A stretch of DNA of 64,000 nt from Lingula anatina (lineage: Eukaryota > Animalia > Brachiopoda). A program made the translations under genes and the position numbers. Position 1 is the first letter of the stretch; each line of letters starts with the position of its first letter. Where the stretch lies: NCBI GenBank assembly GCA_051362555.1, contig CM120640.1, positions 45,300,788-45,364,787 of the forward strand, read 5' to 3'. A model generated the notes under the pieces. It had not been told where the DNA came from, made no database searches, and worked only from the letters and a program-made list of their open reading frames with translations. Below are positions 14,424 to 62,600 of this stretch, piece by piece.

Positions 14424-15320
14424 ATGGCACGGGAAATTACTTGACAGCCCGACTCGAAGGAAAGACGTACTTTGATTGTGTAATTTATGTTGCACCGGGG
14501 CTTGTGTATGTACATGTTCTAAATAAGTATGTTATGTGATATGTTACTAAAAAGTTTGTCTAATTAAGTTGAGGGCAAGCACAAATGAAGTCCTGTCACA
14601 AATTTGAAAATTTGTTTATTATATATAGGCTATTTATTAAGTCTCAAGTTAACTGTTTTTTTTTTTCATTAGCATGTAGGATAGGCATTTCAGATCTACT
14701 GTATGAAAATATTTATGTTGCAATCATGGTGACAGGATAATCAATTGAATCTGAACATTTTCCTTGAAATTTTATTTAAAATAGTTTGATCTCAGAAGTA
14801 TATTTATGAACAAACATTACAAGGTTTTTTTAATGTTCTAATCGAAATTGTATAGCTAAAAAGTACACGAAAAGCGTTCTTGAAAATCCATATACTTTTC
14901 CTCTGGCGGAAGAAAAACGAAATATGATTTAAAAAGAAGTTTTAATTAAAATATCCTCATTACAAGCTGTGTTTCATTTCCTATCAAAGCAAGTTCTAAG
15001 CGTTCCTGATCAGTGATAAATGTTACTGTTTTACATTTCAAATAGATAGTTATATTTGTTGTATAGCTTAAATGCCCATATGCATCAATGTATGTTCCAA
15101 TACGTAAAACAATGAAGTGAAAATTAGATCAAATGAAATTTCTTTGCATTAAATTTTTCAAAATGGAAAGGCCCATTGGGTTTATGTGTGGCACGTGGTA
15201 CAAGTTTATAGTTGAACTCGGGGAAAAGCTTTTTTATGTTCTAAAATCGCCCGCGTAACTGTAGATTTGACATTCCCTTGGGGTAGTAGGCCTAAAGATA
15301 TGTAAATCTATCAAAATAAA

Positions 15321-16870
15321 GAGGTCAACAAATACATGTATCTAGAGGTCAACAAATACATGTATCTAGGTCTCCTTCTAAATCGATCAGGAAGCTTTAC
15401 AGAAACCAAAAATAATCTCCTACAACGTGCTACAAAGGCATTCTTCAGTCTGTCCAAGTCTCTTCCACTTCAGAGTAATGTTAACACATCCTTAAAAGAG
15501 AAATTATTTGATACCCTCATTTCCCCAATCCTTACATATTGCTCAGAGATATGGGGCTACTCGGTGTCAACGGATAACTGCCCTACAGAAAAGTTGCACT
15601 TAAAATTTTGCAAACAAATCCTTGGCCTCCATCAAAACGTATCAAACTATGGTGTATACACTGAACTTGGCCGCCTTCCCCTCTATGCAAAAATACAGTT
15701 TGCATCTGTCAAACTATGGTGTAAAATTATTCAAATGTCTGATGCTACACTAATGAAACAAGCATACATACAAGAGATAAATAGTTACAAGTTGCTGACA
15801 CCCTATGTCCCACCCGCAGTCCACACACTCAGACCAGCTTGTATGTCATGGTCTGAGGGTATCCGAAAAATCCTTTTCACATTTGGCCTTGGTGATGTGT
15901 GGCTTAGCCAGTCACCTCCAAAAAACTTCACCACAATTTTCAAACAAAGACAAACTGACCACTTTACCAAAATATGCAAACTTCAAGCCAACAGTAAATT
16001 ATCTCTCTTCCGTATACTTAACCAAAAGTGTGAAAGGGCAACTTATTTTGATAAAATAACAAATTTCGACACCTTGTCAACCCTTGCTAAACTACGTCTT
16101 AGTGACCATAAACTCCACATCAAAACTGGGCGGCACACCAGGCCAAAAACTGAAAGGTGCGACAGAATCTGTCACCTGTGCACACAAGGGGTAATTGAGG
16201 ATGAATACCATTTTATATTCCAATGCCCAATGTACAAAACAGACCGAGTCACCTTTTTCAGTAAAACCTCATTCCTAAAAGCTGATTCAAGGTCACCAGA
16301 CAGTCAATTATGCCATGTATTTAACAGTGCCAACAAAGATACTTTGGTGTCCCTCTCCAACTTTATAATCAAATCATTCGAGAAAAGAAGTGAAGTGGTT
16401 GCTCTGCTTGGTAACTCTTAACATATCCCTTAAAATGTCAGTGTATGGTCCCACTGTTGTGAGAAGTGACTCGGCAGTGGGACTGAACATGGCACAGTAT
16501 TTATATCTGTGTAACTTATTTACTTATCTGTCTTATGTAATTGTCATTAATCGTAATTATCAATGTCATCAAACTGGCTCTGAACAGCCATGTAAACAGC
16601 TATGTAACGGTGGTTTTAAGTTTTTTAAAAACATATTCTTTTTGTGTAACATGTTTATAGTATGTTTATGGTAAATTTATAATCACACCAAGGTTTATCT
16701 CATTGCTTAGATAGAATATTTTTATGAGTAATTTTACTAGTACTTATCTTCATTATATAAAAAGATGGTAATGCACTAACTGTATTGTATCGTCATTTGT
16801 ATATCATATTGTACAAGCTAGGTCATGACAATCTATGTACCAGTACAGAAATAAATTGAATTGAATTGAA
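15321..16870 (+). mobile_element. 5'-truncated non-LTR retrotransposon (RTEX-like LINE): RT thumb plus CCHC zinc knuckle
   Basis: ORF 15336-16421 has YLG...SGSF, KFCKQILG..ELGRLPL and RLSDHKLHIKTGRH..CHLC..IEDEYHFIFQCP. It ends in AATAAA plus a (TTGAA)n tail at 16849-16870. TSD TATCAAAATAAA lies at 15309-15320 and 16871-16882. Confidence 0.9.
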
Positions 16871-17146: not shown

Positions 17147-19206
17147 ATGGCGTGCGTATTTCTTTAATCAATTCTTCCTTATTAAATCAATCATGTACGT
17201 CACTTAGACCTTAGTTTTGTCTAGTTCAGTTGTTTGATTTTTAAATGCATGTCGCAAATTAATTGATGTTTAAGTTGATGTGCTTGTAATATGTACCGCC
17301 ATCTTGATAAATTTGTTTTAACTTCAAAGTGCAAGGAATATCTCAACAAGCGGCGTTTGTAAAATTTCGAAATAAAGCCAAAGCAAATTTGCAAATATTT
17401 GGAGGCGATACTTAGTTAGCAGTAATTGAATAAATGACATATCTGGTTTCAGGAACAATGAATGCAGAATTTACGTGGGAAACCTTCCCCCAGACATCAG
17501 AACAAAGGACATTGAAGATTTATTCTATAAGTTTGGTCGCATAACCTTCATCGATCTGAAAAATAGGAGAGGTCCACCATTTGCTTTTGTAGAGTTTGAC
17601 GATCCAAGGTAATGTCTTAGAATTTTATAAATGGAACTGGTCTTGGTGTGACTCAGCACCGAATGGCTATCGGCCCACATCATATTATTTTACCTATCTT
17701 AGCATCAAACTATCATCTGTGCCCATTGTAAACCCCTTACAGATGCAGTACAGTGCTAGTATCAGATCTACTATTTACGTAAAAATTGAACAAATTGGTT
17801 CTGCTTCAAAGTCATTTTTATGCACACAAGTAATGTCCTACATATATTTTCAGCAATAGGTCTGTATTTTAACTCCTTCGCTACTCATTGTAAGCTTATA
17901 ACACCCCTCCACTTAATAATACTTTCTTGTTAAGTAGATTCCATCAGTGAAAATATTTTTATTAATATTCCAGAGATGCTGGGGATGCAGTGCATGCACG
18001 TGACGGCTATGACTATGATGGCTATAGACTGAGAGTAGAATTTCCAAGGGGATCTGGACCTGGTGGCCCTCGTGGAGGTGGAGGCGGTGGACGTGGTGCA
18101 AGGCGAGGAGGACCCCCTTCAAGAAGATCAGATTACAGAGTTTTGGTGTCAGGTATACAATGGTATTATCAAATTATCCTAGGAGGAGGCTCTTCAGGAT
18201 GAGAATGAAGGACAAGGACCACTTTTACATAACTCAGGATACTGTGTAAAAGATGGATTTTGCAAAACCAGCAGTAGAGGAAGACAACATCTCTCTATTT
18301 TGAATAGGTTTGAGTGTGTGAAATGAGGTAATTTCTGTGGGTAAAAATAGTCAATTAGGTAGCAAAGAAATATTTTATTTTTGAAGTTTTTTCAGTTCTT
18401 TGCCATTTAGGTATATTATTTGCTATATACCAATCTCTGTTCCCTCACAAGGATTGCCCTCTACTGGAAGCTGGCAGGATCTGAAGGACCACATGCGTGA
18501 GGCTGGAGATGTTTGCTATGCAGATGTTTTCAAAGATGGGACAGGGGTGGTGGAGTTCCTCAGATATGAAGACATGAAATATGCTGTGAGGAAATTGGAT
18601 GACTCTAAGTTCAGGTCACATGAGGTGAGAAGATTCTGTAATAAGTGTTAATATTGGAGGTATGCAATATCTGGTGAGAGAGACTGTTGAAAAAATTTAC
18701 AAAATACAAAGTGTAAGTGATCTTGTGAAAAGATTCTTTATCAGATGTGAAAGTGGATACCTTGTATAGTGAGGGGCAATTACTTACAGCAAAGATATTG
18801 TAAATAAAAATAACATTGTTCATCCTGATAACTGAATTGCAGCACAGATCAGTTTTTGCCATGGAATTTCAAATATAAGACCTCTCTATTAGTGTTATAG
18901 TGGCACAAGGTTAAGTACAGGATAGTCTGGATTATTAAACAGCTAAATAAGGTTTTGTGTAATGTTTGTCTCTTGTTTGCAGTTTTATTTACATAAAAAG
19001 GGAAAACCTAATATTTCCAGGGAGATACAAGCTACATCAGAGCAAAAGAAGACTCCAGTGGTAGGAGAGATGGTGGAGGTGGCCATATGGGAGATGGCAT
19101 GGGACGAGGTGGTAGAGATCGCTCAAGAAGTCGTAGTTTTTCACCACCAAGACGCAGTAGAGGGTCACCAAGCTATTCACCGATGAGAAGAGCTTCTCCA
19201 TACTGA
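17147..19206 (+). CDS. SRSF1: SR splicing factor SRSF1/SRSF9-like (SF2/ASF), copy A, 232 aa
   Basis: Exons 17147-17151, 17453-17608, 17974-18152, 18452-18624 and 19021-19206. RRM1 ([35 protein letters not shown]), Gly linker, pseudo-RRM SWQDLKD, and a short RS tail ending [15 protein letters not shown]. Confidence 0.95.
18170..18335 (+). promoter_or_regulatory. Conserved GGA-rich element in intron 3 of SRSF copy A (putative poison/splicing-regulatory element)
   Basis: Aligns with copy B at about 25490-25675, whereas introns 1, 2 and 4 are not alignable by eye. Contains repeated AGGA motifs and a donor-like gag|gtaatt at 18327. Confidence 0.65.
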
Positions 19207-19649
19207 GTTATGCGGTTTAATTTTCACAGCAGCATCTTTTGAGTGCTTTGACTGTTGTCACATTTATAAAGACTTGTAAAGATTTCTCAAGTAAAGTGGA
19301 CCAAAGGTTTTCAATGTAGACTTTCAAGTGGTTAAAGAAAGTGATTTTTCTCATAATTATAAATAGATTGATTTTTAATTGTCTGCTGAATGACATTTTT
19401 AACATGATATTTTTATTTCTTAGAGACTGCATTTGAAGAGATATAAGGTGTCATAAAATTTCAGAAAAAAAAATGTTTGAAATATTTGCATAGACATTTG
19501 AAGATGCTTCATTGCATGGTTTCCATTGCAGTTTGAAGATTTGGTCTGTGAGTTTTGTCCTCTACTTACGTCTCCCTAGAATGAATGTAGTGTGAATGGT
19601 TGGTTGAGATTCTTGCACATATTATCCTCATTGCTAAAACAATATATAT

Positions 19650-20600
19650 TTCACAAGCTAATTCACAATTTTATTTCTATTTGATATAAGGTGCTTGGGA
19701 GTCTCCTGCCATTCTTTTACTGGATGCGGAAATACAGGGATCATATTAGTATATAGGATAGGAGGATTTAAACATAGGAGGAAACCTCAGGATCCACTAG
19801 GATCACTGGATTGTTTGGGAGATAGGGATAAGTTTGATGTTCGTATAAATATAAATTTGCATCTCTCAAAAATTAAAACTCTTTATTTTGGAAACTAAAT
19901 TGCCTAAAATTTTCTTGAGTTAATGAAAAATATTTAAGTTAATACAATTTCATTCCATAAAAAAATAAAGCTTATAAAAAATGAATGCCCCTAAACATCA
20001 CAAAAGCAAAAGAGGAAGTGGATCATATTTGGAAAAGGCAAAAAATCGGATGGAGCAGTTTCCTCTATGACGGAACAAGTCTCACAAACTAAAACTTAAG
20101 TCCTTTGGAATGAAGATACTTATTACTGGAGGTCTTGTCTAGGAGAAATCTTGGAATTCAAAAAACTAATATTAGGAATAGGAAAAGATCTTGACTCTGC
20201 ATATGGATTGGTAATATTATAACATGGAAGGAGACCTTTAACATAGTTCTTGCACTTTCATTAGGATAAGGAAACATTTTTGGGAAGGAAATTGCGAGGG
20301 AAATGTGGAAGACCTCATTAGGAAAGGAAAATGGGCTCATAAAGGAAATGATGGTATAGTATTGAAATTGGTTACATGTTGGGTTTTATATCTACAATTG
20401 CCCCTTCTTTTACAGATTACCTTCTGTGTGTTCTGTGTTAATTGTGCACTTGTCTAGTCTCGTGTGTTTGAATGTTGAAAGTGTGGGAGAATGGATGGTA
20501 AGATTGGCTGAATTTGACTGTCTTCACTGGAATAATGTCTGTTTGAGCATTTCCCTGGAATTGTCAAATGCAGTTTGAATAAAAATTTTGAACTTGATTC
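19650..20600 (+). promoter_or_regulatory. Conserved 3'UTR regulatory blocks and polyA signal of SRSF copy A
   Basis: 19668-19826 is identical to the reverse complement of 24187-24345. About 20120-20520 is highly similar to about 23460-23865. AATAAA is at 20578-20583. Confidence 0.75.
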
Positions 20601-20752
20601 CACAATTTGTTTTGTTCAATTAATTTTAAAGTATAATGGAGAAAGAAAGATCTTTTACTAATTGTAAACTCCCTAGATGAAAGTCAGATAAGTTGGTAGG
20701 CATTCCTGACATTTTTCCCTTGTACAGTACATCCTAAGTAATATTTACACAG

Positions 20753-21167
20753 AGGAGCTTTTGAATGCATCGAAAAGCTCCTGTTGAGCTGCATTTTGCA
20801 ACTGGTTACAAAATGCATTCAGTTGCAAAATGCGGTCCTACTAAGCAGAGACGCATTTTGCATCCAAAAAAAATTGTGATAACGCATTTTGCAACTACAA
20901 CGCATTTTGCAACCAGGATTTTTTTCTAAGTGCCTAAAACAGTTTAAAGCACGAAACGGGTAGAATTAGAGTGGGGGCGGGTTTGCTTCGACTATGTATG
21001 CTGAAACTAGCCAGGTTGCCCCTGGGATGGAAGATAATATAAAACTTATATTATGCGTTTTCATGATTTTCTTTGGTTGCAAAATGCGTTCAGTTGCAAA
21101 ATGCGGCTCGCATTTTGCAACTGAACGTATTTTGCAACTGGTTGCAAAATGTGGCTCTAAAGCTCCT
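20753..21167. mobile_element. Non-autonomous element with a 5' hairpin, subterminal IR and GCATTTTGCAAC repeats (HINE/MITE-like)
   Basis: aggagctttt (20753) pairs with aaaagctcct (20772-20781) and with aaagctcct (21159-21167). There are many gcattttgcaac/gttgcaaaatgc units in both orientations. Confidence 0.65.
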
Positions 21168-21961
21168 TACATCCACATAAAGATTGGACATTTAAATTTC
21201 TGCACAAGCTCCATACTGTGCGAGTACATTTGAAATGAGGAAATGTTACATGGTGCTCATTATTTGGACATACTGTTCTTTTCTATGTGAAAAAAAAACG
21301 ACGAAAAATGAAAGACCTGGGCTTGAAAACACGGAAACAGTATATATTGCAACTGCCTTCTAACATTGTGATCAGTTGCTATTTGTGGTGGCAATTCCCC
21401 CCCCCCCCCCCATAAAAAATTACTTAATAAATTCTTCATCAGTATAATTTTTGTCTGTTGAAATAATATTCTTTATGCATAGCTTTCTTCATATGAAAAT
21501 TTCTTTAAAAAGAAGCGTTACCGAGTTGCCAAGATCTCATCCTTTTTATCAGAGGTACTGAGTGAATCAGCCTTTATAAGCTTCCTTGCTTTATCATGTG
21601 CTACAATGAGTGAAAAATAAAAATTGCCATCAAGTTCAATTACATAAGACATTTTAAAATGATGAATGCCGTTTCAAGGTCAACTTGCTGCAAATAATAG
21701 CCTCGCAAAGAGAGATGATAAAACCTGCGAAACAATTTACTCCCTTCAAGAGATGAGTGTTTTTGCTGGATGGTAATTAAAAAGGTCTAACATAAATAAT
21801 GTCACTCACTTGAGCTGATTGCATCTGGCAAGTCTCCATAGAGTTGGGTCGATCCAAGTAGACTGATGGTGTGTTTTTCACACCAGATGCTTTTGATCCT
21901 ACCTCCTCCGTAAGATCTCAAATACAGTCACAGATGGGAAAGAGGACTTCAAGGTCATAAG

Positions 21962-22288
21962 TTAAAGGGATAACTACTGTTTGTAAGATATCTATATTTC
22001 ACTATAAATATATTGCAAACAACTCATAGAAATATAATAAATTCTATTTTACCATCAAAACAGCAGTTAACACATTTATTCTGGGGTTTGTGCTTGTCAT
22101 CGCATCACGTGACCTCCATAGATGGATACACTATGTAATAATCTCTTAAGAGAATATTACAAAAAAAAACAAACTTTTTTTAGAAAAAAATGGACTAACT
22201 TCAAATGTGGGAGTGAATTCATTAACCATTGGGAAGTAAGAGAAAATTGTCCTTTACCCCAGGAAAATTCATTTTTTGACCAAAATGA
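21962..22288. mobile_element. Non-autonomous TTAA-targeting DNA transposon (Kolobok-like), copy 1
   Basis: ttaa-agggataactactgtt ... aacagttgttatccct-ttaa. The internal sequence matches 33133-33466 and about 59680-59880 in the opposite orientation. Confidence 0.7.
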
Positions 22289-22476
22289 ACAGTTGTTATC
22301 CCTTTAAAAGGCAAAAGCCAAACGGATAAAAAAAATTCTGCACACCTGTTTCTTTGGTTAGATATCATATGTGAAAGTATTGTGTTAGCAAATAATCAGG
22401 GCACCAATAATTTTTTCTGTAAAAACAATCTGGCATTTTAATTTTTATAAGTTTAAGGGACCATTCCCACAGATAT

Positions 22477-22678
22477 TTGGATCTATCTATCTCTCTGGGG
22501 AGTCTTACTAAATTTGCTATCATCATAACCGTCTTAACTGTCTGTCACCCCTAATAAAGCCATTAGGGGGGAATTATCTTTACCCCCAGCTGATTCGGTA
22601 GGCGTGACAGACATTTAAGCCTCTTGAGCTGATAGCAATTTAGCAAGAACACCCAGGGAGTTAGATCGATCCAGATGG
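22477..22678. mobile_element. Old palindromic MITE
   Basis: tggatctatcta..ctgggg..tcttactaaatttgctatca..tgtctgtcac pairs with gtgacagaca..tgatagcaatttagcaaga..cccag..tagatcgatcca. Confidence 0.6.
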
Positions 22679-23394
22679 ATCGTTCTAAGTATGGGAACCC
22701 AGTCTTCTTTACAACCTTCATTGGATTGGATCAGGATACTTTTTCTGACAGATTTAAACACTGTTCATTTTAAAATGAAAAATAATTAAGGCTACATGAA
22801 AAAAGTGTGTGGTGGTGGGGGGGGGGGGGGGGGGGGGGGGGGAGGGAGGTTGTGCAGCCATATTTTCTCTTTAAAAGCTGTCTAAATTATAGAAAATACT
22901 GTATCTCGAAACTCCCAGTATTAAGCGCCTTTTTTTGTTTAAAGAATTCTTATCTTTTTAGTCAAAATACTACATGATTATGAGACTTAGCACTTTGTCA
23001 TGATTCTTGTACCAAAATCCATAGCAAAAAATGTGTAAACATCCAATTTAAAAATTGAAATAAGAACCAGTTTATCGTAAAAATAATTTCTTACATCTTT
23101 GTATCAATTCTGTTGTTCAATATTTGGTCTTTAGAAACCTTTCAGTTATCTTTTCAGACATGAGCCTAGGTTTTCAAAAAAATAACCTTTGAACACTTAT
23201 TGAATCTCAGCGTGACAAATTTCAGGAACCATCAGAATTGACTTTAAAAACGCAGAATTCCACGTTACCTCTGAAAAGCTTATGTCTGATCTTTTTCAAA
23301 ACCTTTAAATTTAATTTGAATTTCTGCATTGAATTCATTAAAAATAAAAACCACAAGTAAAAATAAAAACAAAACAAGATCATAAGATTCATTT

Positions 23395-24365
23395 ACAAAT
23401 TTTATTCAAAATTATAAAAAAATTACAATCCCAGAGATGTGCTCAAGCTGACTTTTTACCAGTGCTGTCAAATTCGGCCAATCTTACCATCCACTCTCCC
23501 ACACTTTCAACATTCAAACACACAAGAGACTAGACAAGTGCACAATTAACACAATATACACAGAAGGTTATCTGTAAAAGAAGGGCCAATATTATAGATA
23601 TAAAACCAACATGTAACCAATTTTAATACTATACCATCATTTCCTGTATGGGCCCACTTTCCTTTCCTAATGAGGTGTTCCACATTTCCCTCGCAATTTC
23701 CTTCCCAAAAATGTTTCCTTATCCTACTGAAAGTGCAAGAACTATGTTAAAGGTCTCCTTCCATGTTATAATATTATCAATCCTGATGCAGAGTTAAGAT
23801 CTTTTCCTATTCCTAATATTAGTTTTTGGAATCCCAAGATTTCTCCTAGATAAGACCTCCAGTACCCAGTTGCTTCATTCCCAAACTTTTTAAAGTGTTT
23901 TTAGTTTGTGAGATTTGTTCACAACGGCTCCATCCAATGGTTTTTTGAGAATCTTTCCAAATTTGATCCATTTTCTCAGTGTAGCCAGTTTTATCTTGAG
24001 CAAAGGTAAAAGGATATCTCCAAAATATTTTCAATTTGATTTCAGTGGAATGAATTACAGTCAAATGTTAAATTAACTTGTTTCTGAATGTTTATTATGG
24101 CCATATGCCTTCTTTTTCAACTAACAAAAAGTTAAAATCAATTTAGAAAGAAATGAATTTATATTCATCCAAAGATCCAGAATATTCCTATCTCCCAAAC
24201 AATCCAGTGATCCTAGTGGATCCTGAGGTTTCCTCCTATGTTTAAATCCTCCTATCCTATATACTAATATGATCCCTGTATTTCCGCATCCAGTAAAAGA
24301 ATGGCAGGAGACTCCCAAGCACCTTATATCAAATAGAAATAAAATCGTGAATTAGCTTGTGAAAT
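23395..24365 (-). promoter_or_regulatory. Conserved 3'UTR blocks and polyA signal of SRSF copy B
   Basis: Mirror of the copy A 3'UTR, with AATAAA on the minus strand at 23401-23406. Confidence 0.75.
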
Positions 24366-24817
24366 ACATATTATTGTAGCAATGAGGATGTTATGTGCAA
24401 GAATCTCAACCAACCATTCACACAACACTCATTCTAGGGAGATGCAAGTACAGGAAGTAACCTCTCAGATCAAAACTGCAGTAAGACCATGCAATAAAAC
24501 TTTCTCAAATCTTTTCTCAAATCATTCAACTCAGTACTTATCTTCATTATTTGAAGCAATGTATCTCTGCTCATGTAGTTTCTAAGAGCTAAAAAAATAT
24601 TTTCATGTTAAAATGCCAAGCAAAGTACAATTAAAAACTAATTTGTCTACTTATAGAAGAATCATTTTCTTAAGGTAACCACTTTTACTTCAAGTTTACA
24701 TTGGAAACCTCTGGTCCACTTTACTTTATAAATCATTACATGATCAAAGTCTCTATAAATGTTATACAACAGTCAAAGCACAACACAGATTATGCTGTGA
24801 AAATTATACTGCATAAC

Positions 24818-26780
24818 TCAGTATGGGGAAGCTCTTCTCATTGGTGAATAGCTTGGTGACCCTCTACTGCGCCTCTGGGGTGAAAAACTTCGGCTTCTTG
24901 AACGATCTCTACCACCACCTCGTCCCATACTGTCTCCCATGGAGCCACCACTACCCCGCCCACTGTAGTCTTCTTTCACTCTGATGTAGCCAGTTTCCCC
25001 CTGGAAATATCACAATTTGATCAATTTAATGAAAGGCACATTATACAAGTTTTTCATTGTATTTCAAATTACATATTTTGTAATACTGATATAATTGACC
25101 TCCCCTACAAATGAATTTTCCAAGTAAAAATGCTAAAAATGAATGTGGTCATTTTCTCTGCTTTGTCAAATGTTGAAGATGTGTGCCCTTCTTGGTAGTT
25201 ATTAACATTTACAACACACCTCATGAGATCTGAACTTGGAATCATCCAATTTCCTCACAGCATATTTCATGTCTTCATATCTAAGAAACTCCACCACCCC
25301 TGTCCCATCTTTGAATACATCTGCATAGCAAACATCTCCAGCCTCACGCATGTGGTCCTTCAGATCCTGCCAGCTTCCAGTTGGGGGCAATCCTTGTGAA
25401 GAAACAGAGATCAATATATACTGAACATATTCTTCATAAAAGAACTGTGAATAAAAAAAAATGGTCCTCACTTTAATTTTCAAATTACACCTGTTGACAG
25501 TGTCATTTCACAAACAAAAAAACAACTGACAATCCAGATGTTGTCCTCCTCTACTGCTGGTTCTGCAAAATCCAAAAAAAATTTTAACACAGTATCCTGT
25601 GTTATGTAAAAGAGATCCTTGTCCTGAGAACTTTCACTCTTATCCTGAGGAGCCTCCTCCCAGGTTAATGTGATAATGTCATAATTGTATACCTGACACC
25701 AAAACTCTGTAATCTGATCTCCTTGAGGGGGGTCCTCCCCGCCTTGCACCACGTCCACCGCCTCCACCTCCACGAGGGCCACCAGGTCCAGATCCCCTTG
25801 GAAATTCTACTCTCAGTCTATAGCCATCATAGTCGTAGCCATCACGTGCATGCACTGCATCCCCAGCATCCCTGGAATATTAGAAAATTGACTTCTATGA
25901 GGCAAAAACCTTTGTAAATGCATAGAAGTTGGGTTTGGTTGCGGTGGTAGGGTTACTTACTCGCTACAATTTGTTTATTTCAGACTTTTGAAAGAATTAA
26001 TGTCATTAAGCTATAATAACAATGTATTATCAATAGGAATCATCAAAGATAGTCCAAAAACTTACAACTTAGCAAAATATAAAGGGAGATTTCATGGGAT
26101 TGAACCCTCATCACTAAAAAACCTCACCTTGCCCAATATCTTGCATTTTCCAATCAGTAATGACAACACACAGTGACTTCCTTATGTATGAAATAACGTT
26201 TTCCTTGAATAAAAGGTAATATGATACAGGGAACTGCATCTGATAAGATTTTTTAACACAAATTTTATAATACTTTATAAGGTAACACATTTAATTTTGT
26301 TAAAAACATAAGCTACCTTGGATCATCAAATTGTACAAATGCGAAAGGTGGACCTCGCCTGTTTTTCAGATCGATGAAGGTTATGCGACCAAACTTATAA
26401 AATAAATCTTCAATGTCCTTTGTTCTGATGTCTGGGGGAAGGTTTCCAACGTAAATTCTGCATTCATTGTCCCTGAAACCAAGCAGATCGTTACATTAAG
26501 TCGACATATATATAACCACCCAAACAATTGTTCTGTTATTTGATTATTGTTTAAGAAATAAACATAAATTTTATTGGTGGAAATACTTCGCACACCGAAA
26601 AGGATTCCAAAAAATGGCGACCATGACAAAGCCAACACCGGTCAAGACTGCTAAATGCAACAATGTAATACCCCAAAAGATCAAACAACTGGACAAAACA
26701 AAACTTGATTTCTAGAATAAATGCAAGGTTAACATATTCGATAAATATATCAATGAAAATAGTATGCAAACATACCCCAT
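24818..26780 (-). CDS. SRSF1: SR splicing factor SRSF1/SRSF9-like, copy B (inverted paralog), 231 aa
   Basis: Exons 26780-26776, 26472-26317, 25871-25693, 25392-25220 and 25000-24818. Exon sizes match copy A (5/156/179/173; last exon 183 vs 186) and the frame is intact. It starts MGDNECRIY and RNP1 reads PPFAFVQF. Confidence 0.95.
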
Positions 26781-28135: not shown

Positions 28136-34464
<6,329 letters not shown>

Positions 34465-34496
34465 GCTTCTTCTCGCGTACTAATGCGAGATCTAAC
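34465..34496. promoter_or_regulatory. Ultra-compact bidirectional COQ5/HEATR6 intergenic segment
   Basis: 32 bp between divergent ATGs, containing the inverted repeat TCTCGC-n8-GCGAGA and a YY1-like AACATGGC over the HEATR6 ATG. Confidence 0.6.
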
Positions 34497-54017: not shown

Positions 54018-57000
54018 TTATTCTACACTGGCAAAATGTTTGTCAGTTGTACTGATTATTCTACTTTCTTCTTCTAATTTTTGAAGGCACTTAAGGATGG
54101 CATTTGAATTTAGACTACAGTACTCTTCTGCCTTCCTAATCTCACCCAAAATATGTAGGTAATGGCACCCCTTTTCTGCATCTGAAAGATGATGTTTGAA
54201 AGAACAGTTACAAAAATACTTCATAAATGGACTTGTACTGTGTTCAATAATTGATAACATGTACCATGTTGCTGAAATTCAAGCAACACCTTCATTTAAT
54301 ACATACACCTCAAACATTTAAAAATTACATCAGATTCTTTAAAAATTACATCAATATACACTTTTCCTTCAACAGAAGCAGTTTACAATAATGTTAAATT
54401 ATAAATTATCCTTACATTTTTCTCTGGCACATTCTTTTTGCAGCAAATTCAGCACAATTTTGATAAGTTGGACATCATTCATAATCACCTGAAATTCAAA
54501 GTCCAGTTGAGCAGAGCCTTTAGATTTTGTCACTTGTTTATGTGACAATTTTGGGGACTTATATGATTATTTAAATTTTTGCCCTATAGATCAGGCCTAC
54601 CCAACTACCAGACTCGCACATAAGGATCCTGAATTAACCCGTATTTCAGACCACACTACCCGTTTTCAAGGTGTGTGTCAGACCACATTTCGGAGTATCA
54701 TACCCCAGAACAATTTTTGTAGGACGACCGCGGACTCATCCTGTCAGTGTTCTGACTGATGCTCCGAAATGCGATCTGACACACACCTTGAAAATGGGTA
54801 GTGTGGTCCGATATACCAGTTAATTCAGGATCCTTATGGGCCGAGTCTGGTAGTTGGGTAGGCCTGTAGATGTCCTATTACAAAGGCATATTACATACAC
54901 TGTAAATAATGAAATTACCATTGTTCAAATTTTTTTCTTTCCCTTATCTATCTCTTTTTACAAAGTAAAATACAAAGAACGTTGTACAGAGGTTATCTAT
55001 TACTTTTTAACTGATGGTTGTAGACAAACACAGTCAATGAAATCAGAAAAATTCATTTGTTCTCATTTTTCACGTTAGATCCTATAAACAGTTCCTTAGA
55101 CAACAGGTCGTATGTAGAACGAACATTCTCAGTTAAAAAAATAGTTTTTATCGTCAGCTAACACATGTAAAAATTAGTGCTTACTCTGTAGTGTTCTCGC
55201 TTTTTCTGATGTTTTAATAGAAAACCGCTTTCCTCCAGCTGATTTACAACTTGATCAAGTAAGGTCCTTTTGTTTAAAGCAACCTAAAAAAAAAACAAGA
55301 AAAGTGTAAATTGAGCACTTTACATTGATAAAGTTACTTAATTTTAGCATAAATATTTCCAATAAATGAAAGATTGATGACTGTAAGTTTTAAGCAACAT
55401 GTAAATTGATATTCCCAGTGTATACCTATAATCACAATATCATCTTTAATAAAGCAGACACATTGAGGCAGGTAACCATCAGAGATCAGCAATCTATATC
55501 TCCCCCACTACAGACAGGGGCAAAACTCTCTCAACCTGTCAGGATCATTTAAATGATCCAAATGATGTTTTAAGAAGCTGTACATTCAAACTGATGATGT
55601 TGAGCTAAGTAAATAAGTAAATGAATCCTGTCAATTTCTTTTCTATCTTACACTTTGCTCTGGTGCATTTTGGTCAATTAGGGATTTCACATCTTCAGAT
55701 GTCTCCAAGTCTGCCATGCAGAATTGTACAGTTCTACTTTCTTCGAATAATTTCATGAGGCCATCTTGTAGACTTGCTGTGAGGTGAATCTGGAAGATAA
55801 GTACTGGTGATAAATTTTTTGACAGAAAGAGTAGCTATAGGTTACAATACTAATTCTGTACAATGTTAAAATTTGAGACAAAATTGTAGTCATAAATGGA
55901 ACTGCTGTAATACACAATGAACTCTAAATACTACAAAGAGGTATTAAACAAATGTACATTCTCCTGAGCAACCACAGTATAATAATTTCAGCCCCAGTCT
56001 TAATTATAAATGATATATAACACCGACTTACCAATGAAAGATTATGAGAATTGCAGTTTTTTATTATGTTTGACAACTGGAAAGGCTTGTCATAAAACAA
56101 CTGGTGCAGGGCCTGCACCTCCAGCATTCGGTTCAGTTCCGCATTTGGATCTTTCTCAATGGCTGAAATAAACAGATAACAAATCATGAAAATTACAGTA
56201 ACTTAAAGAAAATGCTTCACCCTAACAAATTTGATAAGTAGACCAACAAGCTGTAACTCATTGTATACAGGCTGAAGGAGAACTTTTGTTTTGTAACTTT
56301 TTTATGTTTAATAGGCATTCCAGATACATTTTACATTTTTTTTCTTTTCTTTTCTTTCTTTCTTTAGGAAGAGGGAGGATGTCAAATTGTCAACTTGGAC
56401 AATTTCTGAGCATTAATATAACAGCATTTAAGTTTTTCTTGGGGTTAGTTTTAAATATTTCCCACTTAACAAGCCAATGTCTAATGCATTTTTTTCATTT
56501 GAAAAAAAAGGGTCTAAAATATCTGATTTCCTCAAATCTGTCAGTCAAACTAGTAAACCAACTTCTCAATTTTGTCTGGCCTTATAATAACTTTGGTGAC
56601 ATCAATTCTATTAAATGGATACTACAATTTCTTAATTCTGGAAACTGGATGTGTATCTTTCAATGGATATAATACAATATAGTGCATAGAAATCCCAATG
56701 AGACATGAAAATTCTTGGTTGGACCTTTTTTCTGTCTGGTGATATACACTGTAACTGATCACCCCATTTCAGGCCTAGAGAAGTCCTCATCAGACACAGA
56801 CCAACCAAAAGGGACATTAAAAAGAATATATCCCTAAAATTCTAAATTAACATTTAAAAATTCTAAGGCAATACATAATTTTTCTTTTAGATCTGTAAGT
56901 TTGAATCTGTAAAACCACTAAAGTCAGCCTTGAAACTTGCCAAAGTAAGAAGCCATTATTTCTCGTTGTTCTCTGAAGATCTTTATTTTTCCTCTGACAT

Positions 57001-59614: not shown

Positions 59615-62600
59615 ATGGCAAGGCATTTGGTAGAACACACAAGGAAGCATGATATTCCTAAATTGTCCAATCCTTGAATTTAAAGGGATAATAATTAATT
59701 AATATAACTCTTCCTTTTGGCCAAAAAATGAATTTTCCTGGAGTAAACAACAATTTTCCCATACTTACTAATGGTTAATGAATCTATTTTTACATTCAAA
59801 GTTAGTCCCTGGTTTTTTTCTAAAAAAGTTTTTTTTTTTTTTTTTTGTTATAATCTCTTAAGAGATTACAACTTGATGCATTCTGTAACATATATAACTG
59901 ACCTTAAATTAACATACATATTTCTCTCATTTAGTAGGTGGTGGCTGGTAGAGAATACCGGATCTTTCTTGGTTACATATTGTTATGTATCTGGCTAGAT
60001 TTTGTATTGTGTCATGATTTCGGTTTTGCATTAGTGATTTATTCTTTATTTATTAACTAATTAAGTACATGTATATCAATTATTGATTGATTAATTCTCA
60101 ATTCTCATTAACAATTAATTAATATTGATTTATTAATTGGCTCAATTCTCATAATTTTTAAATAATTGATTAACAAAAAACTAAGAATCTGTTACTTTGC
60201 TCCCTCCCGTCAGTTTCTGAAAAATTTATCAAAATCCGTCCACAACCTTTTCCATACTGTTGCTAAATACAGGCCAACGGAATCAAAAACTAATGAGCTC
60301 CTTGGCGGGTGTAATAACTCATAATTACTAAGTTTGTAATTTCAAAATCCTTTAGATAAGGACATGTAGCACGGTTTAAAAAATTTAATTTAGAAAATCA
60401 ATTTTATGCGAAGATACCTGGTTCATGATAAAGAACTTTAAAGATCAGCGTGTCTTAAATGCTCTGTTTGTATTTACTTAGTGAAATCCTGCCTGCTGTC
60501 AGCAGAGCTTCTTAATCTTTAAATGTTGATAATTTGCGCTTCTTTATGTGAAATCTTTGTTTCGTTTCAACACATCTTCGGCTCTGCAGAGATGACTAAA
60601 ATAGTGGCTGCACGTTTTTCACCATTTTTGCTACTTTTCATGCATACTTTTTTCCGTGAGTATATCGAAACAGCACTATTAGCAATATTGCAACTCCAAG
60701 AAATGGCAAAAGAATTATGTTGAAATATTTAAATTTGAATGAGATAATAATTTCAGATTTCATAGTGACTTCTTCCCGGCTGCGATTCGAGAACACAGAA
60801 TATGAACTTTACCCAGAAGCGAAGAGTTGGCTCGAAGCTAGAAAGACTTGCTCCCAATTAGGCGGAAGACTTGCCAGTGTCAAGACAGAAGAAGTGCAAA
60901 ACTTCTTGGTGAAGAATGTCATCCAGGCAAAGGAGCACGTGTGGATAGGAGGGTTTGTTGGAAAGAGATGGTTCTGGACTGATAGTAAGTAAAATGGTTG
61001 CAATGGTTGGGGTATGGTGTTAAAATTTCAACGTTAAAATAAAGCTGTGGAAATTAATTGCTTACCACTTTCAGAAATTTCCCTGAAATGAGATTTGTGC
61101 ATCTCAGAGTGACTAACCGTTTAAATGTACATTCTGTACTTTTCAAATCGATAATTTTGACCCCATTATGCAACATTCGCTTCAGAACATTTACATAGTT
61201 TGCCTACTACGACAAATATACGTCAACATTGTTCTTTGTAGAACAAGAGATAGAGTGGTTTTTCTGGGCACCCGGAGAACCCAATAATGACGGAGACAGT
61301 GAGGATAAGCTCCAATTGTTTTACAGATATAAGGGTAAAAAAACACTTTATATCGATGACACAAGGCGATATACATTGTATTTGATAGGCCTTTAACCCG
61401 ACAAAAACTAGCACTGTTTGAATAAAACAATGTTTATTAATATATTGGAGTATTTCTTATAGTAAGAAACAAAGAGTACACATGTTGTCTTACACTGTAT
61501 GCGGTTTGCTTTGTTGGACTTGATGTTTATTGTGATACGAAATATTGGGAATCATTAATTTCTGATAGTGATAAGTAGCTAATCTTAATCCATATTATAC
61601 GAGAACTTTTAAATTTATATCCGCTAATTCTATAGCCCCTTAATATTGTAGTACACTGGATAAAACATTTTTTTCTATTTTGAATGTGGCAGACCACTTC
61701 TTCAATTACACGTGGAACGACAATCAGGGCAGTAACACGTGTGAAAACGGTGTAAAATCAAATTTTATTTGCAGATACGGTGAGTATACATGAACTTGTC
61801 TAGGAGTTTGATATTTGCGATATTTAAAAAATTCCGATCACTTGGGTTTATTCATACAGAAATGTTCAGTATGATGTTTTGTCAAACAAAACCAACACCG
61901 TATCGTTTAGATAAAGCAAAATGTGAAAACGCAACCGTCTGTCATAACGCAAAGACAAACAGTCCATGCATTGAATCCGGGTCTTGGTGCTACATCTTGG
62001 AGGGACAAACTGCTGGCCCAAATCACAAGAGAAACGACCAGTGTACTGAGAGAGGATGGACATGGGATGCTTCAAGCCAATACTGCGAGAAAAATAATGG
62101 AATTCTTGCCAAGATTGAGGACCTGCCCACAATGGAAAAGATTAGAAGCAGGATTCAATCAGATAAGTCAAGATACGAGGGGAATTATTGGATTGGTGGC
62201 TGGTGGGATAGGGATGCTCCACGTATGTGGAAATGGGTTGGAGGTACATTTCATCTTTACGTTCAATATATCCATAAAATAGTAACGACTATGAGAAAAA
62301 TACTGTCAAAGACCAACAAAAAATTGATCTTTCACTCGAGTTTTGTACCTTTGTTTAATAACTGTCTGCTTCTAAGTGTTTTATTAACACGGTTAACAGA
62401 AAATCTTATGAAAATGTCTCACTGGTATGTTCGGTATATCTGTTTTACGCAAAAATCATTATTCAAACGTAGACACGATATCCATATTTACCCACAGGCG
62501 GCAACGTGTCATACACCAATTGGAAGTCAGGTGAACCAAACGAAAACAGTGACTTAAAAATGGTTTGCATGGAGATGTGGACGTCGCACCACAAAGATAA

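What the first reader, a model, noticed from the sequence alone, without database searches (positions are those of the whole stretch)
17147..26780. Two intact SRSF1/9 paralogs in a convergent inverted duplication, with non-coding blocks conserved as well as or better than the exons
Seen: both copies keep five exons and intact frames, differing mostly at silent sites (plus A2G/N3D, E->Q in RNP1, S->P in GLPS/GLPP, and exon-5 changes). Introns 1, 2 and 4 are unalignable by eye, but intron 3 and several 3'UTR blocks are retained. Known: SR genes are dosage-sensitive and autoregulate through unproductive splicing and NMD; invertebrates typically have one SRSF1/9 gene. Inference: both copies feed one shared negative-feedback loop in which either protein acts on either transcript. 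The pair then works as a natural phylogenetic footprint of the circuit.
Basis: partly seen in the sequence, partly recalled or inferred. Interest (0 to 1): 0.85.

Follow-up and report, generated by a model that had tools for sequence, protein, structure and literature searches.

The report
Gene-converting SRSF1/9 pair with AGGA blocks
A brachiopod carries two expressed, tail-to-tail copies of a splicing-regulator gene whose near-identical non-coding blocks are packed with AGGA words that the protein itself likely binds, but the copies likely also exchange sequence by gene conversion, so their identity is not a clean footprint of selection, and no self-destruct splice form appeared in three deep RNA sets.

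Summary
Two intact five-exon SRSF1/9-type genes sit tail to tail (17147-19206 +, 26780-24818 -) in a Lingula genome. Both are transcribed and spliced. A 159-nt 3'UTR run is 100% identical while introns 2 and 4 barely align.

The retained blocks are about 20-fold richer in AGGA (24 in 792 nt against 3 in 1963 nt). GGA is the published target of the SRSF1 pseudo-RRM, so self-binding and a shared feedback loop are plausible.

(1) No unproductive isoform was seen: intron-3 depth was 0 and there was no 3'UTR junction in 3 of 3 deep polyA runs. (2) Reads from a diverged sister lineage show both copies sharing new bases at four sites where the two reference copies agree, and the blocks differ between lineages as much as the mappable variable UTR (2.5% against 2.2%). 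That points to gene conversion, as in Drosophila Amy and Hsp70 palindromes.

Verdict: a converting paralog pair with probable SR-protein binding arrays. The autoregulatory circuit is inferred, not shown.

The parts
17147..19206 (+). SRSF1/9-type gene A, coding span (exons 17147-17151, 17453-17608, 17974-18152, 18452-18624, 19021-19206)
   Evidence: Open 232-aa frame (boundary corrected); 4 of 4 junctions in reads
19207..20600 (+). 3'UTR of gene A; AATAAA at 20578
   Evidence: Read depth to about 20500; hexamer
18153..18295 (+). Retained AGGA-rich 5' half of intron 3 of A, behind a weak donor; retention would give an early stop; candidate acceptor at 18237, unconfirmed
   Evidence: 10.7% mismatch to B; 7 AGGA against 2.0 in shuffles, p 0.0015; stop positions; depth 0 in X1-X3, about 2 in X8
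19571..19830 (+). UTR block U1 of A, with 159-nt run identical to B (19668-19826), a candidate splice acceptor near 19691 and the densest AGGA array of the window
   Evidence: shared new bases at 19603, 19732, 19743 in the sister lineage; no junction reads
20061..20530 (+). UTR block U2 of A, AGGA/GGAA-rich, with candidate donor 20354, acceptor 20415 and donor 20498 kept in both copies
   Evidence: no junction reads
20601..23385 (.). Spacer between the two 3' ends, with palindromic and dispersed repeats; no transcription bridging it
   Evidence: X1 depth under 1 at 20651-22014
23386..24817 (-). 3'UTR of gene B; AATAAA at 23406; U2 copy 23921-23459, U1 copy 24442-24183
24818..26780 (-). SRSF1/9-type gene B, coding span (exons 26780-26776, 26472-26317, 25871-25693, 25392-25220, 25000-24818)
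   Evidence: Open 231-aa frame; 4 of 4 junctions in reads
25535..25692 (-). Retained AGGA-rich 5' half of intron 3 of B

Best explanation
Two expressed SRSF1/9-type genes in inverted, tail-to-tail order share near-identical exons and AGGA-dense non-coding blocks, which are likely kept alike by recurrent gene conversion acting where selection likely preserves similarity, and which likely serve as binding arrays for the genes' own proteins in one shared negative-feedback loop. Shown: the duplication is older than the split from the sister lineage, both copies are spliced and expressed, the blocks are AGGA-dense on the sense strand, and paralogs share new bases within a lineage. Inferred: the near-identical pseudo-RRMs bind the GGA arrays of either transcript; when protein is in excess this would activate the weak acceptors in the 3'UTR (near 19691 or at 20415), placing a junction far behind the stop, or would hold intron 3, and the product would be destroyed by NMD. 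Conversion would carry any change in an array from one copy to the other, so the two elements evolve as one.
For: Expression: all 8 junctions in reads, X1 A 219/491/32/650 and B 91/293/252/342 (the low 32 is explained below). Motif: AGGA 24 in 792 nt of blocks against 3 in 1963 nt of the other introns and UTR of A (Fisher 9e-11, best of all 4-mers, chosen after looking); above dinucleotide shuffles in 3 of 3 blocks (p 0.0015, 0.0045, 0.0005); the reverse word is not enriched; the 18 densest of 5112 overlapping 100-nt windows of the 64 kb all lie at these blocks. The pseudo-RRM SWQDLKD helix binds GGA (PMC7813835, passages) and is intact in both copies. Human SRSF1 autoregulates by removing a 3'UTR intron (PMC9262138, PMC4529898, passages). 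Conversion: in sister-lineage run X8 laid on A alone, the pile holds both copies (B base in 18 of 27 reads at 18004, 18 of 28 at 18010, 11 of 18 at 18460), yet a base found in neither reference copy is in 25 of 25 reads at 17998, 44 of 49 at 19732, 49 of 52 at 19743 and 11 of 12 at 19603, whose B counterpart 24410 carries the same change in 20 of 20 (X7) and 41 of 41 (X9) reads. At least 12 of the 20 A/B substitutions in 20130-20500 show one shared state in the sister lineage. In X1-X3 the A allele carries B's bases at 18118 and 18124 (95-98% of piled reads) while X8 keeps the reference A base in 7 of 28 reads at 18118. No fold or Rfam family explains the blocks.
Against: No unproductive isoform: only 4 joints were listed, the two constitutive ones and two back-jumps of 6 and 3 reads; intron-3 bins had depth 0.00 in 3 of 3 deep runs against about 650-1160 in exons; no junction in the UTR at depths of a few hundred to 1100. 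Selection on the blocks is not demonstrated between lineages: 16 differences in 645 nt (2.5%) against 10 in 457 nt (2.2%) of mappable variable UTR (p 0.84); counting only bases new to both copies, 6 in 645 against 10 in 457 (p 0.12). Higher GC and purine content could partly follow from GC-biased conversion (PMC2720389, passage). The conversion evidence is from RNA only, with no DNA of the same animals, low depth, reads that are not independent, and 40 of 94 and 40 of 216 variant rows shown. The only outgroup scan gave one chance hit.
Confidence: 0.45

Rival explanations
1. Same history (conversion plus selection) and the AGGA arrays bind SRSF1/9 or another GGA-binding protein, but they act without splicing: on translation, stability, export or 3' end choice of the full-length mRNA.
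For: The long UTR is covered end to end with no junction in 3 of 3 deep runs. Translational and nuclear-retention layers of SRSF1 autoregulation are described (PMC4529898, passage). Molecule ends pile at the homologous places 19301 (A) and 24714 (B) in runs of two studies.
Against: Does not explain the intron-3 array or the acceptor-like tracts kept in both copies. NMD targets can be rare at steady state, and the tissue of X1-X3 is not known.
Confidence: 0.25
2. The blocks are neutral islands: stretches that happened to stay above the identity needed for conversion in a palindromic pair, with no regulatory role.
For: Blocks diverge between lineages about as fast as the mappable variable UTR; no isoform seen; conversion is evident.
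Against: A neutral process does not predict a 20-fold, sense-strand AGGA excess in three separate blocks, nor loss of introns 2 and 4 between converting exons. The variable-UTR rate is a lower bound, since 19924-20111 drops out at 95% likeness in X8. No difference was listed in the 83-nt AGGA core 19744-19826.
Confidence: 0.15
3. One reading: no conversion; the blocks are a pure purifying-selection footprint of an unproductive-splicing circuit.
For: Strong contrast between blocks and introns 2 and 4; AGGA density; intron-3 block keeps 10.7% mismatch and indels, so it does not look recently homogenised; about 2-fold depth over intron 3 but 0 over intron 4 in X8.
Against: Four shared new bases and the B-type exon-3 haplotype on A would each need parallel mutation; constant constraint predicts fewer between-lineage differences in blocks, which was not seen; no isoform in deep runs.
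Confidence: 0.1
4. The pair is an assembly artefact (two haplotypes), or the mixed exon-3/exon-4 reads are trans-spliced chimeras or come from a read-through hairpin.
For: 454 X1 reads join a B-like exon-3 end to A exon 4.
Against: Both copies are expressed in the same runs with their own 5'UTRs, exon 5 and variable UTRs, and each is separately heterozygous; introns are unalignable. The 180 of 180 first-mate-minus reads at 25739 carry A's base, and on A alone the exon 3-4 count (729) matches exon 4-5 (650), so these are an A allele. The spacer has almost no reads and no A-to-G excess was seen.
Confidence: 0.03

Closest known systems
Vertebrate SRSF1 (ASF/SF2) autoregulation by a 3'UTR intron coupled to NMD
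   Same: Two-RRM plus RS protein with the SWQDLKD helix; long 3'UTR with highly retained, GGA-rich blocks and acceptor-like tracts; one published human 3'UTR primer aligns at 15 of 16 columns with the AGGA core (p 0.002 against shuffled UTR, 0 of 76 other windows).
   Different: No UTR junction seen here; retention is measured between paralogs, not orthologs; binding and NMD untested; 2 of the 4 primers matched only at chance level.
Palindromic Drosophila pairs under ectopic gene conversion (Amy-p/Amy-d, Hsp70Aa/Ab)
   Same: Tightly linked inverted pair older than a lineage split, shared substitutions and polymorphism between paralogs, diverged flanks (PMC3924832, passages).
   Different: In Amy the concerted part is confined to coding sequence; here it extends to discrete 3'UTR blocks while neighbouring UTR and introns escape.
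Unproductive splicing in duplicated SR genes (SRSF4/5/6; SRSF4 and SRSF6 share a poison exon)
   Same: Paralogs keep a homologous non-coding element; auto- and cross-regulation of fresh copies is the stated expectation (PMC4379411, passages).
   Different: Those events are seen in transcripts and confirmed as NMD targets; those paralogs are far more diverged. A poison exon of human SRSF9 in the intron matching intron 3 here is recalled, not checked.

Membership tests
SRSF1/9 (SF2/ASF) SR proteins | Pseudo-RRM with SWQDLKD helix | tested here: met
   Present unchanged in both translations; feature described in PMC7813835 (passage)
SRSF1/9 (SF2/ASF) SR proteins | N-terminal RRM, glycine-rich linker, C-terminal RS-rich tail | tested here: met
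   Read by eye from the translations; no profile score was obtained
SRSF1/9 (SF2/ASF) SR proteins | Orthology by database hit or tree, excluding SRSF4/5/6 which also have a pseudo-RRM | not tested
   No homolog search result exists for these two proteins; the subfamily label rests on recalled likeness. COQ5 is the next gene; its linkage to human SRSF9 is recalled
SR-gene unproductive splicing / NMD autoregulation | Highly retained non-coding element in intron or 3'UTR | tested here: inconclusive
   Met between paralogs but confounded by conversion; not significantly slower between lineages; no distant outgroup obtained
SR-gene unproductive splicing / NMD autoregulation | Alternative isoform with early stop or junction behind the stop | tested here: not met
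   None in 3 of 3 deep runs on gene A; a few intron-3 reads in X8; 7 minor joints were not shown; gene B not examined at fine scale
SR-gene unproductive splicing / NMD autoregulation | Isoform stabilised by NMD block and induced by the protein; protein binds own RNA | not testable with these tools
   Needs experiments; only motif density is shown
Palindromic paralog pair under gene conversion | Inverted, tightly linked pair with diverged introns and flanks | tested here: met
Palindromic paralog pair under gene conversion | Duplication older than a lineage split | tested here: met
   X7, X8, X9 (mostly 95-99% alike) hold both A-type and B-type junctions and variable UTRs
Palindromic paralog pair under gene conversion | Paralogs share substitutions within a lineage, and share polymorphism | tested here: met
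   17998, 19603, 19732, 19743 in the sister lineage; 18118 and 18124 in X1-X3; RNA only
Structured non-coding RNA (Rfam) | Match to a family or unusual folding | tested here: not met
   0 of 14 weak Rfam matches lie in the blocks, all below gathering score; z 0.13 and 0.38 for U1 and U2, -2.17 for the intron-3 block

The most novel reading that the evidence does not exclude
The AGGA core of the 3'UTR is the same element as the GGA-rich autoregulatory tract of vertebrate SRSF1, kept since the bilaterian ancestor, and in Lingula gene conversion keeps two copies of this feedback element in step, so that a duplicated dosage sensor cannot drift apart: concerted evolution of a regulatory RNA element rather than of a protein.
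Probability: 0.15. Interest if true: 0.75.

Novelty: new member of a known kind. Interest (0 to 1): 0.4.

Why it matters
If the arrays are self-binding sites, this is a lophotrochozoan case of SRSF1-type feedback elements, and a pair in which conversion reaches discrete regulatory UTR blocks, not only coding sequence. It is also a caution: paralog footprinting in inverted duplicates overstates constraint. The pair marks exactly which few hundred bases to test. No paper on this locus came up in searches (open-access library only, listings read).

Tried and rejected
No whole genome is held, so copy number elsewhere is unknown; within the window there is no third copy. No database comparison of the two SR proteins was obtained, which leaves subfamily and copy number in relatives open. 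A scan of metagenome contigs with a 20-base word from the UTR core gave 1 locus (L001) whose likeness ends at the word itself: chance. Rfam and folding gave nothing for the blocks. Candidate splice sites (UTR acceptors near 19691 and at 20415, donors 19291, 20354, 20498; intron-3 acceptor 18237 with donor 18328) were picked with a rough recalled consensus and none had junction reads. Trans-splicing and a read-through hairpin were rejected (see rivals). The depth dip at 19266-19547 has no bridging junction and is AT-rich, so it is not read as an intron. Of 4 published human primers, 1 matched well, 1 weakly (p 0.026; 2 of 76 other windows as good) and 2 at chance; GGA-rich words can match by convergence, and the order of the two matches in human could not be checked. 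Look-ups of earlier scan findings gave nothing. In one search site 20211 was entered as 27 of 27; the table says 28 of 28. One search placed the exon 2/3 boundary one base off, hiding one silent difference; corrected.
Full report
What is there. The window holds two five-exon genes in inverted, tail-to-tail order. Gene A runs 17147-19206 on the plus strand with a 3'UTR to an AATAAA at 20578; gene B runs 26780-24818 on the minus strand with an AATAAA at 23406. Both frames are open and give 232 and 231 residues with two RRM-like regions, a glycine-rich linker, the SWQDLKD helix and an RS-rich tail. The SRSF1/9 label rests on these features read by eye and on recalled likeness; no database score was obtained for the two proteins. 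A neighbouring proton-channel exon is 99% identical to a Lingula anatina protein, so the window is from that brachiopod. COQ5 is the next gene beyond B; that human SRSF9 also lies near COQ5 is recalled.

Exons 1-4 differ at 23 silent and 4 replacement positions (dS 0.23, pN 0.010). Introns 2 and 4 hardly align (z 1.1 and 2.8), intron 1 weakly (z 5.6). Three non-coding blocks are retained: the 5' half of intron 3 (10.7% mismatch), U1 at 19571-19830 (3.5%, with 159 identical bases) and U2 at 20061-20530 (6.4%), against 3.4-7.1% for exons 2-4 and 12.8% for exon 5.

Both copies work. Nine RNA runs were listed by species label and seven were laid. In X1 the junction counts are 219, 491, 32 and 650 for A and 91, 293, 252 and 342 for B; X7 and X9 show all eight junctions, X4 seven of eight. 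A further 454 X1 reads join a B-like exon-3 end to A exon 4. These are an allele of A, not chimeras: 180 of 180 first-mate-minus reads at 25739 carry A's base, and on A alone the exon 3-4 and 4-5 counts are alike (729 and 650). The spacer is nearly empty of reads, so no read-through hairpin is seen.

What the blocks contain. AGGA occurs 24 times in 792 nt of blocks and 3 times in the other 1963 nt of A's introns and UTR (Fisher 9e-11; the word was noticed by eye first and is the best of all 4-mers). It exceeds dinucleotide shuffles in 3 of 3 blocks, the reverse word is not enriched, and the 18 densest of 5112 overlapping windows in the 64 kb are at these blocks (overlapping windows and the two copies are not independent). 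The SRSF1 pseudo-RRM binds GGA through the SWQDLKD helix (PMC7813835, passages), and SRSF1 and SRSF9 both bind GGA (PMC9022966, passages). The blocks do not fold unusually and match no Rfam family. Acceptor-like tracts near 19691 and at 20415 and donors at 20354 and 20498 are kept in both copies; holding intron 3 gives a stop at codon 17 (A) or 5 (B) of the read-through. This is the layout expected of SRSF1-type feedback, in which the protein promotes removal of a 3'UTR intron and the product is degraded (PMC9262138 and PMC4529898, passages).

Against the circuit. Laid on gene A at a 1% threshold, three deep polyA runs gave only the two constitutive joints and two back-jumps of 6 and 3 reads; intron-3 bins had depth 0.00 against about 650-1160 in exons, and no UTR junction appeared. 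X8 had depth about 2 over intron 3, against about 17-35 in the flanking exons and 0 over intron 4, which is a handful of reads. The tissue of these runs is unknown, their introns are empty throughout, NMD was not blocked, gene B was not examined at this scale, and 7 minor joints were not shown. So the isoforms are absent or very rare at steady state; they are not excluded under protein excess.

X7, X8 and X9 carry the same species label but are mostly 95-99% alike to the window, and have both copies, so they serve as a sister lineage and the duplication is older than the split. Laid on A alone, X8 piles both copies (B base in 61-67% of reads at 18004, 18010, 18460). Yet a base absent from both reference copies is in 25 of 25 reads at 17998, 44 of 49 at 19732, 49 of 52 at 19743, and 11 of 12 at 19603, whose B counterpart is changed alike in 20 of 20 and 41 of 41 reads of X7 and X9. 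In X9 the two core sites are only partly changed among A-assigned reads (13 of 28, 21 of 31), and the B counterparts of 17998, 19732 and 19743 were not among the 40 rows shown. Two other new bases (18498, 18501; 18 of 26) and 20296 (34 of 52) look confined to one copy. Of the 28 A/B substitutions in U1 and U2, 10 are B-type in at least 96% of the X8 pile, against 0 of 82 in the variable UTR (biased, since B reads can pile only on blocks); 6 more in U2 are A-type in all B-assigned X7 and X9 reads. In X1-X3 the A allele has B's bases at 18118 and 18124, while X8 keeps the reference A base in 7 of 28 reads at 18118. Between lineages the blocks differ at 16 of 645 nt and the mappable variable UTR at 10 of 457 (p 0.84); for new bases only, 6 against 10 (p 0.12). 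The variable figure is a lower bound because 19924-20111 drops out. All of this is from RNA, at low depth, from 40 of 94 and 40 of 216 variant rows. Shared substitutions and shared polymorphism in tightly linked palindromic pairs are the standard signs of ectopic conversion, as in Drosophila Amy and Hsp70 (PMC3924832, passages), and mosaic conversion with purifying selection is described for mammalian pairs (PMC2720389, passages).

How it most likely works. Selection keeps the exons and the AGGA arrays similar enough to pair; conversion between the inverted arms then copies changes across, while introns and the AT-rich UTR stretches have escaped. Because the two RNA-binding domains are almost identical, either protein would bind either transcript's arrays, giving one summed feedback loop. 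Whether the output is conditional unproductive splicing (my first choice) or translation, stability or 3' end control is open. The intron-3 block, with indels and 10.7% mismatch, is the best candidate for a real selection footprint.

Deep homology. One of four published human SRSF1 3'UTR primers aligns to 19753-19767 at 15 of 16 columns (p 0.002 against shuffled UTR; 0 of 76 other windows), a second weakly in the same core, two at chance. This is a lead only, since GGA-rich words converge. A metagenome scan for an outgroup gave one chance hit.

Comparison and verdict. Auto- and cross-regulation of fresh SR duplicates is stated as the expectation in PMC4379411 (passages), and shared feedback between two SRSF1 copies was shown in cells (PMC9262138). 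PMC3173450 (passages) places an SF2 clade across bilaterians but the passages seen do not give copy numbers per invertebrate. All eight papers were read as keyword passages only; no supplements were opened, and supplements of PMC4379411 or PMC3173450 might list invertebrate SRSF1/9 copies. Lareau 2007 and Sun 2010 were seen only as references. Searches listed nothing on this locus. The finding is real, combines two known phenomena, and its regulatory reading is unproven: new member of a known kind, interest 0.4.

Noticed in passing
window 19301 (+) and 24714 (-): Many molecules end at the same homologous place about 95 nt behind the stop in both copies and in two studies (X1 on B; X2, X7, X9 on A). 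Could be a minor proximal 3' end or a library effect before the AT-rich stretch.
   Followed up: no
runs X7, X8, X9: Same species label as the other runs but mostly 95-99% alike to the window: a diverged or cryptic lineage.
   Followed up: partly
window 19628-20309 and 23720-24401: A is about 1.5-2 times B in X1 but about half of B in X4, so the copies may be regulated differently through their unalignable promoters.
   Followed up: no
window 20781-21162, 22475-22676, 54592-54866: Palindromic elements, probably small non-autonomous transposons; weak sub-threshold miRNA-like Rfam matches at 21074-21140 come from the hairpin.
   Followed up: no
window 21962-22306, 33132-33466, 59706-59868: Dispersed repeat; reads on the spacer copy run on into unrelated sequence, so they come from other loci.
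   Followed up: no
window 28136-34479 (-) and 34422-63592: Neighbours: COQ5 and, by Pfam, DUF1168 (47.4 kb), an ion-channel exon (50.1 kb) and C-type lectin domains (60-63 kb). HEATR6-like (34-45 kb) and STN1-like (57.9 kb) labels are recalled, with no Pfam hit. Linkage of COQ5 to human SRSF9 is recalled.
   Followed up: partly
window 15306-16421 (+): 371-codon open frame that looks like the tail of a non-LTR retroelement (recalled likeness; no Pfam hit), just upstream of gene A.
   Followed up: no
window 23221-23242: X7 and X9 have reads beyond B's poly(A) signal, a possible longer 3' end in that lineage.
   Followed up: no
window 19276: Every run laid shows A where the window has G, so the window's base is a private allele or an error.
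   Followed up: no
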